A DNA stretch of 62,752 bases, filler included, from Dimorphilus gyrociliatus (lineage: Eukaryota; Animalia; Annelida), in the NCBI GenBank assembly GCA_904063045.1. It is 5 parts of 5 records of this genome, joined end to end, with 100 filler letters (N's around TTAATTAATTAA, not from the genome) between each part and the next. Parts side by side here need not be neighbours in the genome. Positions count along the whole stretch, not along the records: positions 9,871 to 22,059 come from CAJFCJ010000255.1; 4 more parts are not named here. One strand, 5' to 3'. Below the pieces are notes generated by a model that was not told where the DNA came from, ran no database searches, and saw only the letters and a program-made list of their open reading frames with translations. Position 1 is the stretch's first letter. Each line of letters begins with the position of its first letter. Of the stretch, positions 9,871 to 22,059 are shown in pieces. Made by a program: the position numbers and the translations under genes.

Positions 9871-12800
9871 AAAATTTATCTCCAATATTTGGTTTTCTAG
9901 GTAGTCTTATTTCAATTATTATTAAATTTCTTTTATTCTCTTTTTCAGTAACTCTTAATTTATTAATAAAACCTTTTTCATAACTTTTATATTTTACGTT
10001 AAGAATACCAGAATCATCAACTATACTATAAAATAAATCATTATAGTTAAGAGTATCACCAATGTTAGGTATTTTTAATATACTTTTACATTCAACTGTA
10101 ATAGTTCTATAGACAAAACCATCAAACATACCTCTTTCTACAGCAGATTTATTAATTATCATAGCATCTTCCATGTCATAACCAGTATAACTAATAACAG
10201 CTACTATTGAATTAATACCAATTGGATAGTCATCAAAAGAATACAAGTCATGAATTTTAGTCTTAACTAAAGGTTTTTGTAGATAAGACATAGAAAAATA
10301 CTTATCATTTCTAAATAAATCAGTGTTAATACCCATCGATTGTTTAGCCATCTGACATTGATACATGTTTCTAGGACTTTGATTAAGATCAGCGAAAGGA
10401 ATAGAACCAGCTAAAGAACTAAAAATATTAGTATTAGAGATTTCAGAGAAACCTTTCTTCTGATTTTATTTTTATTTTCTATTGTATTAGTATTTTTATT
10501 ATCTATATTATTATCTACTGTATTTTTTATTGTATTATTCTTATCTTTTGTATTATCTATACTATCTATATTATTTATTGTATTATTTATTCTATTATCT
10601 ATTCTATTATTATCTATTGTATTATCTATTGTATTATCTATTCTATTATCTATTGTATTATCAATTCTATTATCTATTCTATTATTATCTATTGTATTTT
10701 CTATACCATCTATATTATCTATTGTATTATCAATTCTATTATTTATTCTATTATTATCTACTGTATTATTATCAATTCTACTTGTACTATCTATTCTATT
10801 ATCTAATGTATTATTATCTATTGTATTATCTATTCTATTATCTATTCTATTATCTATTCTATTATCTAATGTATTATTATCTATTGTATTATCAATTCTA
10901 TTATCTATTCTATTATTATCTATTGTATTTTCTATACCATCTATATTATCAATTCTATTATTTATTCTATTATTATCTACTGTATTATTATCAATTCTAC
11001 TTGTACTATCTATTCTATTATCTATTGTATTATCTATTGTATTATCTATTCTATTATCTATACTATCTATACTATTTATTGTACTATCAATTCTATTTTC
11101 TATTCTATTATTATCTATTGTATTATCTATTGTATTATCTATATTTTCTACTGTATTATCTACTCTACTTGTGCTATTGTCTATTTCTAAATAAACTTGT
11201 TCTAAAACTCCAATATATTCTATTCTTCTACTAATTCTACTAATACTATAATAAACTGGTCTCATAAGTCTTCCTGGTGTTGTAAAAATATAAAAATTAT
11301 TTTTAATTTTAACAATTTCAATTAAAAGTTTATATTTAAATCTTAAATCTCTAACTGAAATATCAAAATCATTAGGAGCAGTTCCTACTAATTTACCATC
11401 TAATATAACAATTTGATTAGGAGTAATTATAGGAATTAAACCAATACCAATCAACAGTTGTAGCAGATCTATATTATCTATATTACTATAAATATTATCT
11501 ATATCTTTTATATTATCTATAGATTTATCTATATCTTTTTTAACATCTTTTATATGATTATCTATAGATTTATTCATATCTTTTTTAACATCTTTTTTAA
11601 TATCACTATAAATACTATAAATACTATAAATATTAATATCTTTTATATTATCACTTATTATATTATTTTGGTACTCTTTGTATCACTTTTACTAATAACT
11701 GTTGTATGACTTAAATGTGTTAAAAGTCCACATGGTTCTCCATCTGGTGTATGTACTGGACATATAAATCCATAACTTTCATTTCTAAGTCTTCTTACAC
11801 TTGTAACTTTTATTGTAGAAAAAAAGCACCTCTATTTAAAACTGATAGATATGAAATAAATCTATAATAATTAATTTTTTCTATAGTAATTGATAAACCA
11901 GTTGTTTGTTGTAAATCACTAGTTGAATTATTTATATTACCAGTTGATAAGAAATTTATAAATTTATTACTAATTTTTATATCTTTTTTTAAAATTGATT
12001 CTTTTATTTTACTTTTGAAAATTGGAGAAGTTGGATTTATTTTTATTTTTAAAATTGATGTTTTTAAAGTACTTAAAATTTCTTCTATTTTGTCTTTTAA
12101 AATAACTGAAAAAAATTGATTTGTTGATAAAATTTCATGATTTGAAGGAGAGTCTGGATCATCGAATTCTCCATTTAATAATTTTTTTATTGAAAATAAA
12201 ATAAAATAATATTTATCAATACAATTATTTAAATGAGGAAGAATTACTTTTTTTAAATCATTAAAACTTAAATTTAAAGAACTGAATTGTTGTTCTAAAT
12301 ATTTTCTACATTCATTTTTATTATAAATTTTAAAATCAAATATATTTTTTATTCTATCATCTAAAATAAAATTATAGATTTCTTCATCAGTTGTACTTTT
12401 AAAAGCTCTTAGTAAAAGAATAGTTGGTATTAAAAATTCTGATTTTTTATAAAATATTCTACAATAAATAGAATTATTCTTTAAGAGATGAAGAAAAAAC
12501 ATTTCTCCTAATTCATTATAAACACTTCTAACAAGAATAGCAGAATCTGTAAATAATTTATGTTTATCTATAAAATTAGATCTTTTTATTTTTAAAGGAT
12601 AATTTCTTCTATAAGTTATCATAAATCTAACAATTCTTTCAATACCATTAACAATAAAATAACCACCTATTTCATTATTAATACTATTATTATTATTTTC
12701 TAAATTATTACTATTTTTACTATCTCCTTCTCTTATATTACTATTTTTACTATCTCTTTCTTTGTTATTAATAGAATAACATAAATCACTTCCTACCATC

Positions 12801-13138
12801 ACTGGTATTCCATCAATTGTTCTATTCTCTTTATATAATTCTTTTTCATCTAAACTTATAAATATTTCATAAGAAACGTTACCTTTGTAAGTTAAAAGTC
12901 TTTCTCTACACATATTTGGTGTTAATTTTTTATCAAAATCCATCTCTTCATCAGGTGTTGTTGGTTTACTTACATGTAAATTTGATATCATTATATTAAT
13001 TTTATATTTTTTATCTTTTGTATCAAAAATAAATGATTTATTAATATTTAATAGAATATTAGGAATGTTATTAATAAAATCATTAAATGAAGTTGTATGA
13101 AATATTGAATGATTATAATTATTATTATTATTAGACAT
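9871..13138 (-). CDS. RPA2: RNA polymerase I second-largest subunit (Rpa135/RPA2), microsporidian-like, 3' truncated, split by probable sequencing frameshifts
   Basis: [43 protein letters not shown]; after a homopolymer slip at ~11815, [72 protein letters not shown]. The DLQQ..G.T...EKIN.YRF and [12 protein letters not shown] motifs fit RPA2 better than RPB2/RPC2. No introns seen. Confidence 0.9.
10500..11190 (-). repeat. In-frame Asn/Asp/Ile tandem-repeat insertion in RPA2
   Basis: Over 200 codons built mainly from 12-nt IDNT/IDNR units, with a higher-order duplication ([22 protein letters not shown]...[23 protein letters not shown] twice). Confidence 0.9.
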
Positions 13139-13142
13139 GGGG
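13139..13142 (-). promoter_or_regulatory. CCC-type microsporidian transcription-start motif directly upstream of the RPA2 ATG
   Basis: Minus strand reads ...aatcttaCCCC ATG. Equivalent motifs occur at 13380-13384, 18804-18806(-), 19189-19192, 19801-19803 and 45217-45220(-), each within ~15 nt of an ATG and preceded by an AT-rich tract. Confidence 0.7.
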
Positions 13143-13391
13143 TAAGATTTAATATTTTTCTTTTTTAAAATTTTTAAAATTATTCTTTTTTTTATTTTTC
13201 AATTATAGATTAATTTTTTAACTTTTATAAATGATTATTTTTATAAATTTTTAAAATGATTCTTTTTTTTTATAAATGATTATTTTTCATTTATAAATTA
13301 TTTTCTTAAATTAATATTCTGAAACTGTTTTGTTTTACTTCTCCTTTTTTTTTACAAATATAAAAACTTAAGTTAAATACCCCCAAAAAGA

Positions 13392-20189: not shown

Positions 20190-20357
20190 GCTATTAAATT
20201 ATATAAAACATTTAATATATGCTACTGTGTTGGTTTCTATATTCAAAAATAAATTCTCATCATTACTAAATTTTGTTCATTTATTTACTTTGAAACTTAT
20301 TTATTGATTGAGTTTTAAACCATTCTTATTATTTTATTCTAAAACAATTGGTATTAG

Positions 20358-21395
20358 ATGTATATCCAACTAATAGAACTATTCATAAAATCATCTTCTT
20401 TTAATAATGAATTTAGCGAAGTTGAAAGTAGTGAAGTAGAGCTAAGCAGTGAACTATCAGAGAATTTATTAAAGGTGAATAAAAGTATATCAAAATGCAA
20501 ACCAAAGTCAATTGGTATAATCGATATAGGAACGACCGGAACTAGATTGAATATTTATAATTTTATATCAACTGAGAACTGTAAATATAAACTATCAAAT
20601 CTTAACAAATTTGAGAAGTTAAAGGGAATCACTGAATATCCCCCATCTAAAGTAAAAAACTACTTTGAATACTTTACAAAAGCTATAACTAAAAATAAAT
20701 TGGATAAACTTGTATTTTTGGCGACTGCTGGACTAAGAATGCAGAGTAAAAAAGAGCGTAATAGTTATTTAGTAGGTATTAAAGATTACATAGATCAAAT
20801 TAACAGTATAGATGAGGTAGAAGTGAGAGTTCTAACAGGACAAGAGGAAGCAAAGTATGCTTGGAAGGCTATATCATATTTAAAAAAGTTAAACAGTCAA
20901 AATAAAATACAGTTTGGAATGATTGAAATGGGAGGTGGTTCATTTCAAGTAGCTTTACCAGAAGATAATAAACTTTTGGTAAGGTCTTACAATGGATATG
21001 GTGTAGTTAAAGGCATAGCACATTCTGAAATGTTTAGTAAAGACAAATTTATTGAAGATGTTGATTTCCGTTTAAAAAACAAGTTGAAAAGGCTTAAATT
21101 TCAAAAAAGAGATAAAAAACTAAGTAAAAAAACCGTGGAAATATCAAAAGGAAGTGATATTAAATTTTATTTACTCTCTTTTTTCTATAATATTTTTGGT
21201 GATAGAAAAACAACTGTAGATCAGCTTTACTTAGAAAATAGAAATTGCGATTACTCAAATATAGATTGTAGGAAAATTTTATACGTTTTAGAAGTTTTAA
21301 AGTTAAATAAAATAAAAAATGTAAGAATATTAAAAAAAATTCAAGGATTTGACGTTAATTGGACCTTAGGATATGCAATAAGTCTTCTTAGATGA
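20358..21395 (+). CDS. GDA1/CD39 family nucleoside phosphatase (apyrase)
   Basis: All five apyrase conserved regions: IDIGTTGTR, ATAGLR, GQEEAKYAW, IEMGGGSFQ, NWTLG. No obvious N-terminal anchor in this ORF, so the true start may lie upstream. Confidence 0.88.
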   Translation: MYIQLIELFIKSSSFNNEFSEVESSEVELSSELSENLLKVNKSISKCKPKSIGIIDIGTTGTRLNIYNFISTENCKYKLSNLNKFEKLKGITEYPPSKVKNYFEYFTKAITKNKLDKLVFLATAGLRMQSKKERNSYLVGIKDYIDQINSIDEVEVRVLTGQEEAKYAWKAISYLKKLNSQNKIQFGMIEMGGGSFQVALPEDNKLLVRSYNGYGVVKGIAHSEMFSKDKFIEDVDFRLKNKLKRLKFQKRDKKLSKKTVEISKGSDIKFYLLSFFYNIFGDRKTTVDQLYLENRNCDYSNIDCRKILYVLEVLKLNKIKNVRILKKIQGFDVNWTLGYAISLLR

Positions 21396-22059
21396 ATTAA
21401 ATCATTTTATTATTAAAGTTTAAAATAGAAAGTTTTTATTGCTAAAGAAAGAGTTTTCCCTTTTTAAATTGGTCTTTTACTTTAAAAAAGTTAATAATAA
21501 ATCTTTTCGTCGTTTTAACTTCAAATGTTTGGTGTTAGATTAATGTAACTATCAATTGATAAATTAAAAAAAAGCCTTTTTAGTCACTTAGTTTGGCTTT
21601 TAACATATACATTAACTAATTTTTAGTACCTAACCTAAATAGCATATTTTACTTTTGGTATTCAAAAAATTTTTATAATAGAAATTTAGTATATGTATTT
21701 GAAATAGAAGTAGAATAAATTAAAACTTTATATTATTGTAAGTTCTTTAGTTTATTTACTTTGCTATGTTTACAAAGAGTGTATTTGCAGAATAAATTCG
21801 GCTTATAACATCATATAGTAAAGTTATACTCGCTTAATGAAATATCCTATTCACATACAGTCTGTAAAAAAAAGGTAAACAAAAAAAATTTAATAAAAAA
21901 CTTATGAAAACAACAATTTTATATTTACATAATATTTTAAAAGAATGAGCAATAATCATGATACCAACAAGTATGGTTTTGAAAAATTGTATGATCAGCT
22001 TAAATACTTTTTATCTCAACAAAACTTTTTCGACTGTAGAAAAAAAGTGAGCAAGAAAA

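What the first reader, a model, noticed from the sequence alone, without database searches (positions are those of the whole stretch)
9871..22059. A microsporidian-like genome fragment hidden among animal contigs
Seen: six intron-less housekeeping genes in 12 kb, extreme AT richness, highly divergent proteins, and CCC motifs within ~15 nt of five of six start codons. The flanking blocks have spliceosomal introns and metazoan domains. Established: CCC/GGG motifs next to the ATG, near-absence of introns and short divergent orthologues are hallmarks of Microsporidia, and large-genome species carry low-complexity inserts. Inference: the sequenced animal (short 55-66-nt introns suggest a compact-genome invertebrate; species not identifiable here) carried a possibly undescribed microsporidian parasite.
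Basis: partly seen in the sequence, partly recalled or inferred. Interest (0 to 1): 0.72.

Follow-up and report, generated by a model that had tools for sequence, protein, structure and literature searches.

The report
Microsporidian parasite DNA in animal assembly
This 12-kb contig among animal contigs is DNA of a microsporidian (a fungus-related parasite that lives inside cells), likely sequenced together with an infected animal and likely from a distant branch with no close relative among the proteins searched.

Summary
Bases 9871-22059 form one contig between assembly linkers (20% GC, 83% coding). Its RNA polymerase I subunit RPA2 groups with Microsporidia (100/100; union with animals rejected, p-AU 1e-7). 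It shares a ~25-residue deletion seen in 23 of 24 microsporidian and 0 of 24 other RPA2 proteins. CCC lies 0-11 nt before 5 of 6 start codons (background 2%). The closest RPA2 is 42% identical, and the order is unresolved.

Corrections: three of the six genes (RPA2, cullin, choline transporter) are broken. All 8 phased breaks are net -1, with no nonsense codon. This is likely homopolymer under-calling at low depth, but it could not be tested on reads. Short intergenic gaps do not support a large genome. 'Undescribed' is untested because the window has no rRNA.

Additions: a second microsporidian piece (kinase at 48883-49326) is joined through one N to animal DNA, likely a misjoin. Five runs from two studies under two organism labels hold 20-61% of the sampled words. 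The host is unidentified, and the window may hold two animals.

Verdict: a likely new, divergent member of a known group, found by a well-known route.

The parts
9871..22059 (.). Microsporidian contig, bounded by assembly linkers; 20.2% GC, 83% coding
9871..13138 (-). RPA2 (RNA polymerase I second subunit), cut at the contig end in domain 6; three net -1 breaks near 11820, 11680 and 10460
   Evidence: Pfam Rpb2_1, _3, _4, _6 in successive frames; tblastn; trees
10462..11187 (-). 242-codon low-complexity insert in RPA2 (68 N, 49 I, 45 D, 27 T, 22 R)
   Evidence: anchor-to-anchor length 415 aa vs 126-188 in 23 microsporidia, 285 in Hamiltosporidium
13139..13142 (-). CCCC directly before the RPA2 ATG
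13380..13384 (+). CCCCC 7 nt before ATG 13392
13392..14636 (+). PNS1/CTL-type choline-transporter-like gene; three phased net -1 breaks in the 3' half; 5' half unresolved (at least 4 more breaks, or a separate small membrane-protein gene)
   Evidence: Pfam PF04515 E 2.3e-5, 1.7e-7, 0.01 in three successive pieces; frames; minimum-break count. The name of the 5' part is recalled, no call supports it
15129..18792 (-). Cullin-like gene with Asn-rich inserts; two net -1 breaks near 17350 and 16985
   Evidence: Cullin_Nedd8 E 0.0039; C-terminal winged helix matches CUL1, Foldseek E 8.5e-4; frames
18804..18806 (-). CCC 11 nt before the cullin ATG
19189..19192 (+). CCCC 6 nt before ATG 19199
19199..19753 (+). 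184-aa helical-repeat protein, possibly Fes1/HspBP1-like (name recalled, inconclusive)
   Evidence: no Pfam or PDB sequence hit; model pLDDT 74.6; HspBP1 rank 8, Z 9.8, rmsd 5.7, 139 aligned, tied with other HEAT/ARM folds
19801..19803 (+). CCC 5 nt before ATG 19809
19809..20189 (+). RRS1-like ribosome biogenesis protein (weak)
   Evidence: Pfam PF04939 E 0.014 for the C-terminal part, below the curated cut-off
20358..21395 (+). GDA1/CD39 nucleoside phosphatase, intact, no CCC motif
   Evidence: Pfam E 1.4e-22; best homologues 27% and 26%, unnamed
48883..49326 (-). C-terminal half of a microsporidia-type protein kinase, cut exactly at the single N (second microsporidian piece, outside the finding)
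49327..49327 (.). Single N joining the kinase piece to an animal filamin/CaMKK block; likely misjoin

Best explanation
The contig is genomic DNA of a microsporidian, likely a parasite co-extracted with an infected animal and likely assembled at low depth as separate contigs, and its broken reading frames are likely sequencing errors. Shown: the RPA2 placement, the deletion, the CCC motif, the lack of intron candidates, the composition and the contig bounds. From the literature: CCC next to the ATG is the microsporidian transcription-start signal, with very short 5' UTRs, so these genes would be transcribed from just upstream of the start codon. Inferred: AT-biased slippage and weak selection would have grown Asn/Asp/Ile tandem inserts in loops of RPA2 and the cullin, as reported for Asn-rich expansions in Hamiltosporidium MCM proteins. 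Inferred: the consensus likely lost single bases in short homopolymer runs, more often in parasite contigs than in host contigs. The lineage branches outside the Nosema/Encephalitozoon/Enterocytozoonida group; its order is unresolved.
For: Trees: RPA2 lies inside Microsporidia at 100/100 under LG+C20+F+G4 PMSF, 49 rows, 741 columns. FastTree on 115 rows gives 1.0 and the 4-state recoded tree gives 100. Union with the 4 metazoan rows is rejected, p-AU 9.5e-8. Deletion: between two domain-6 anchors the window has 84 residues; 23 of 24 microsporidian rows have 80-91 and 24 of 24 other rows have 107-158. Of 69 metagenome loci spanning the site, 68 are 25-68 residues longer; the one exception, L001, has closely packed unspliced ORFs and a domain-6 stretch that resembles the Vittaforma/Glugoides rows by eye, not placed in a tree. 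CCC 5 of 6. No GTAAG/GTAAA..YAG intron of phase-restoring length at 9 of 9 breaks examined. Error reading: 8 of 8 phased breaks are net -1, with longest local runs of 2-7 bases; no in-frame stop in the 1,083-codon RPA2 read-through. One cullin break sits in a repeat unit one A shorter than its neighbour copy. The MULE in the second piece has five net -1 breaks, and its repeat copies differ by single-base gaps in short runs. The host NACHT-LRR gene has one such break in 6.2 kb, while a host MULE shows a nonsense codon and a +1 shift, as decay would (read by eye). Five runs from two studies hold 0.20-0.61 of the sampled words.
Against: No reads could be laid, so the error reading is indirect. 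A ninth candidate break in the transporter is net +1 (8 of 9, p 0.039), and its 5' half needs at least 4 breaks in 570 nt if it is one gene. RPA2 has a long end branch (1.06) and an odd amino-acid make-up, and the tree holds no named Mikrocytos, Entamoeba, Rozella, Mitosporidium or metchnikovellid row. Twelve of the 24 'microsporidian' rows are unnamed and were labelled from their rank. By BLAST score, fungal RPA2 ranks as high as microsporidian RPA2. The best run holds only 0.61 of the words, fewer than the visible break rate would explain, and it may be the source sample. Parasitism of a given animal is inferred from the group's biology; co-extraction from gut content or a second animal is not excluded.
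Confidence: 0.88

Rival explanations
1. Same as the best reading, but the organism is an already named microsporidian (known from rRNA or morphology, or with a genome whose proteins the searches did not reach). This is compatible with the best explanation and affects only novelty.
For: The RPA2 tree lacks named rows for Dictyocoela, Cucumispora, Anncaliia, Tubulinosema, Nematocida, Gurleya and the Glugeida genera. The first RPA2 search saw only proteins of 775-2210 aa and capped its candidates. Runs that hold the DNA gave no near-identical protein in the protein collection, so that collection is incomplete. Organism labels A and B are coded and one could be a microsporidian.
Against: Best identities: RPA2 42.5% over 725 columns, GDA1 27%, kinase 56%, although Dictyocoela, Gurleya, Nematocida and Edhazardia proteins are in the collection. 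No near-identical locus in the metagenome collection.
Confidence: 0.3
2. Microsporidian DNA integrated in the animal genome and decaying; the breaks are real mutations and the N at 49327 is an insertion boundary.
For: Three housekeeping genes are broken. The kinase piece abuts animal DNA. Transposon exchange between microsporidia and animals is reported (PMC4202319, passages).
Against: The 12-kb contig holds no animal sequence. Breaks are one-directional, with no nonsense codon. CCC motifs and three ORFs are intact. The kinase is cut exactly at the N and its N-terminal half is not found beyond it.
Confidence: 0.04
3. The breaks are real and are rescued by transcriptional or ribosomal slippage, as is known for some AT-rich bacterial endosymbionts (recalled).
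For: Essential genes are interrupted at A/T runs in a 20% GC genome.
Against: Runs are only 2-7 bases long. The same signature occurs in a transposase, in non-coding repeat copies and in a host gene.
Confidence: 0.04
4. Another AT-rich, fast-evolving protist or fungus drawn to Microsporidia by long-branch attraction.
For: Long branch and biased composition; such lineages are not represented by named rows.
Against: The deletion is independent of branch length and absent from the long-branch rows P0106, P0107, P0110 and P0114. Support survives recoding. The CCC motif and the microsporidia-type kinase agree.
Confidence: 0.02

Closest known systems
Hamiltosporidium tvaerminnensis (P0074; Daphnia parasite)
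   Same: AT-rich; low-complexity expansion between the same two RPA2 anchors (285 vs 415 aa); Asn-rich in-frame expansions reported in its MCM proteins (PMC6944219 section 20); sister to the window in some trees (SH-aLRT 87 quick, 92 recoded).
   Different: Only 37% identical; the pairing is unresolved in the careful tree and joins two long, compositionally odd branches. Its intergenic regions average 2.2-2.5 kb against 55-492 nt here; GC 26% vs 20%.
Astathelohania contejeani (P0301)
   Same: Highest RPA2 identity, 42.5% over 725 columns; shares the domain-6 deletion.
   Different: Not grouped with the window; no insert.
Microsporidian genomes recovered from host sequencing (PMC12558613, passages seen)
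   Same: Same route: parasite genome obtained collaterally from an infected animal; 40 assemblies reported.
   Different: Those came from arthropod hosts and are near-complete; here only fragments with frame errors, and the host is unidentified.
Encephalitozoon cuniculi CCC-like start signal (PMC2803860, abstract)
   Same: CCC immediately upstream of the start codon, reported across distant microsporidia.
   Different: No difference seen; transcription starts were not mapped here.

Membership tests
Microsporidia | Conserved protein groups with the phylum in a tree | tested here: met
   RPA2 100/100, 100 after recoding; one gene only
   84 aa vs 80-91 in 23 of 24 microsporidian rows and 107-158 in 24 of 24 others
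Microsporidia | CCC-like motif next to start codons | tested here: met
   5 of 6 starts, background 6 of 314; PMC2803860 abstract
Microsporidia | Near-absence of spliceosomal introns | tested here: met
   no phase-restoring intron candidate at 9 of 9 breaks; only the GTAAG/GTAAA..YAG pattern was tested
Microsporidia | Reduced SSU rRNA placing the taxon in the phylum | not testable with these tools
   no Rfam match in the window; no genome held
Microsporidia | Polar-tube and spore-wall genes; spores inside host cells | not testable with these tools
   not in the window; needs the whole bin and microscopy
Nosematida/Enterocytozoonida group (16 rows) | RPA2 inside that clade | tested here: not met
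   clade has 100/100 without the window
Hamiltosporidium | Sister relationship in RPA2 tree | tested here: inconclusive
   87 and 92 in two trees, open in the careful tree; 37% identity
Hamiltosporidium | Long intergenic regions (about 2.2-2.5 kb) | tested here: not met
   55-492 nt in this one contig
Species with deposited proteins | Near-identical orthologues | tested here: not met
   best 42.5%, 27%, 56%; searches had length and candidate limits
Fes1/HspBP1 (gene 19199-19753) | Armadillo-repeat core matching HspBP1 above other helical repeats | tested here: inconclusive
   Z 9.8, rank 8, tied

The most novel reading that the evidence does not exclude
A deep, unsampled microsporidian lineage (new genus or family, as far from every sequenced relative as the orders are from each other), with about 20% GC and Asn-rich inserts in core enzymes, recurs in at least two studies under two organism labels and infects an invertebrate group with no microsporidian genome yet. 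Its genome could be rebuilt from public runs.
Probability: 0.4. Interest if true: 0.58.

Novelty: new member of a known kind. Interest (0 to 1): 0.38.

Why it matters
Microsporidian genomes recovered from host sequencing come mostly from arthropods (40 of 40 in PMC12558613). A lineage at 42% RPA2 identity would add a long branch near the unresolved base of the tree and a data point on the link between AT bias, protein inserts and transmission mode (PMC6944219). Several public runs hold the DNA, so a genome bin is within reach. Practically, the assembly holds parasite contigs and a likely chimeric join that could be misread as animal genes or horizontal transfer. The phenomenon itself is routine.

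Tried and rejected
No read depth or read-level check of the breaks was obtained, and no whole genome is held, so coverage binning was impossible. Metagenome scans: 190 pattern matches and no relative for the RPA2 N-terminal part; 80 loci kept of 343 for the C-terminal part, best 45% over the full length, with no shared neighbours among the other genes. The GC-rich hairpin near 13855 folds with z -2.4, but Rfam gives only an E 0.49 chance hit; no tRNA; no Rfam family in the window. PDB sequence searches named neither 19199-19753 nor 19809-20189; Foldseek found nothing at E 0.001 for the first. Tetranucleotide correlations were too weak (0.07-0.53) to bin the blocks. The kinase tree (143 columns) does not place the second piece within Microsporidia more finely. 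My first frame coordinates for the MULE breaks were wrong and were re-read. Earlier-findings look-ups returned nothing. Paper searches (listings only) showed nothing on this lineage; they could not be aimed at it because it has no name.
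Full report
LAYOUT. The window is a string of contigs joined by linkers at 9771-9870, 22060-22159, 31194-31293 and 41349-41448, with one lone N at 49327. The finding is exactly one contig. Its GC is 20.2%, falling to 13% in 1-kb windows, against 27.6-35.8% in the animal blocks. No whole genome is held.

GENES. Six units cover 83% of the contig. RPA2 (Pfam Rpb2_1, _3, _4, _6) and GDA1 (E 1.4e-22) are firm. The choline-transporter-like gene rests on three successive PF04515 pieces. 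The cullin rests on Cullin_Nedd8 E 0.0039 and a winged-helix match to CUL1 at E 8.5e-4. The RRS1-like gene is weak (E 0.014). The 184-aa gene is a helical-repeat protein whose Fes1-like label is recalled and inconclusive.

IDENTITY. The RPA2 N-terminal ORF finds fungal and microsporidian RPA2 at about 30% identity, with no clear winner by score. A read-through with X at the three breaks was therefore placed in trees. With 114 of the 115 hits (one partial hit left out) FastTree put it with 9 microsporidian rows at 1.0. A profile search added more microsporidia. I picked 48 of the 226 RPA2 proteins fetched by hand: 24 microsporidian (12 named, 12 unnamed and labelled by rank) and 24 others. Under a site-heterogeneous model the window plus the 24 form a clade at 100/100, and at 100 after four-state recoding. 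Union with the four metazoan rows is rejected (p-AU 9.5e-8). A deletion in domain 6 gives a character free of branch-length effects: 84 residues between anchors here, 80-91 in 23 of 24 microsporidian rows (Hamiltosporidium 105, with a low-complexity fill), and 107-158 in all 24 others. Among 69 metagenome loci that span the site, only L001 is as short; its neighbourhood shows closely packed unspliced ORFs, and I did not place it in a tree. CCC precedes 5 of 6 starts at 0-11 nt against a 2% background. This signal is described for several microsporidia (PMC2803860, abstract and outline seen).

PLACEMENT. The window's RPA2 lies outside the 16-row Nosema/Encephalitozoon/Enterocytozoonida clade, in an open fork with Hamiltosporidium, Astathelohania and the Edhazardia group; end branch 1.06. 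Best identity is 42.5%. Pairing with Hamiltosporidium appears at 87 and 92 in two trees, but both rows are long and compositionally odd. Many genera are missing from the tree, so no order can be assigned. GDA1's best homologues are unnamed, at 27% and 26%.

BROKEN FRAMES. Eight breaks can be phased by homology, repeat units or ORF continuity, and all are net -1. A ninth candidate in the transporter's 5' half is net +1, and that half needs at least four breaks if it is one gene. No standard short intron explains any of the nine. The RPA2 read-through has no stop in 1,083 codons. The same signature appears in the MULE transposase of the second piece (five net -1 breaks), in its repeat copies, and once in the 6.2-kb host NACHT-LRR gene. 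A host MULE instead shows a nonsense codon and a +1 shift. Under-called homopolymers, more frequent at the parasite's lower depth, fit best. This is inference: no reads were laid.

SECOND PIECE. The ORF at 48883-49326 belongs to a distinct kinase family (5 hits below 1e-30). Of 22 top hits looked up, 10 carry a species name: 9 microsporidia and one salmon-louse assembly. The gene is cut at the lone N, beyond which animal filamin exons begin, so the join is likely false. A MULE in this piece has CCCC before its ATG. Whether this piece comes from the same parasite is open: it is gene-poor and its CpG ratio is higher (0.84 vs 0.39).

HOST AND OCCURRENCE. Blocks 1-9770, 22160-31193 and 31294-41348 share repeats and are CpG-depleted. 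Block 49328-62752 shares none, is not CpG-depleted, is rich in microsatellites and has kilobase introns, so a second animal is possible. The host is not identified. For 11600-21400, five runs hold 0.20-0.61 of 1,007 sampled words: four from one study (organism A) and one from another (organism B). The best holder may be the source sample. The eight smaller shares are not used.

WHAT IS KNOWN. Microsporidian genomes are routinely recovered from host sequencing; 40 came from arthropods (PMC12558613, passages). AT bias, repeats and Asn-rich expansions go with mixed transmission in Hamiltosporidium (PMC6944219, passages and section 20); the short gaps here do not match its long intergenic regions. 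Transposon exchange with animals is reported (PMC4202319, passages). No supplements were read; the genome tables in those of PMC12558613 could hold a closer relative.

VERDICT. Microsporidian identity is shown about as firmly as one marker gene, one deletion and one motif allow. Co-sequenced parasite with consensus errors: 0.88. New member of a known kind; interest 0.38.

Noticed in passing
window 48883-49327: Microsporidia-type kinase cut exactly at a single N and joined to animal filamin exons; likely chimeric scaffold that could be mistaken for gene transfer.
   Followed up: yes
window 43641-45508: MULE (FLYWCH + transposase) with ~78-bp terminal inverted repeats, flanked by an unusually long ~78-bp direct repeat; CCCC lies just before its ATG at 45212, suggesting a transposon adapted to the microsporidian start signal.
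   Followed up: partly
window 49328-62752: Filamin 3' end and a CaMKK-like gene with kilobase introns, 36% GC, CpG ratio 0.85 and many CT/GT microsatellites; unlike the other animal blocks, possibly a second animal.
   Followed up: partly
window 31703-37947 (-): One NACHT-LRR (NLR-like) gene of about 2,080 codons without apparent introns, split by a single net -1 break near 35260.
   Followed up: partly
window 13854-13881 (+): Near-perfect GC-rich hairpin inside the transporter region of an AT-rich contig (z -2.4); no Rfam match; could be a small insertion or RNA.
   Followed up: partly
window 22160-26681 (+): LTR retroelement with RT/RNase H and integrase-like remains and an intact 1,028-codon env-like ORF with no Pfam hit.
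   Followed up: no
window 7100-9770 and 22160-27300: Host transposons are extremely CpG-depleted (0.07-0.08) compared with neighbouring host DNA (0.35-0.69), as expected if methylation targets transposons.
   Followed up: no
window 41960-42960 (-): Degraded or error-laden coding-like stretch in the second piece, with stops; no Pfam hit.
   Followed up: partly
protein P0124: A kinase annotated as salmon-louse PLK4-like falls in the microsporidian kinase family, likely a parasite contig in that assembly too.
   Followed up: no
L001 1-16591: Gene-dense metagenome locus whose RPA2 shares the microsporidian deletion; likely a microsporidian; gene order differs from the window.
   Followed up: partly
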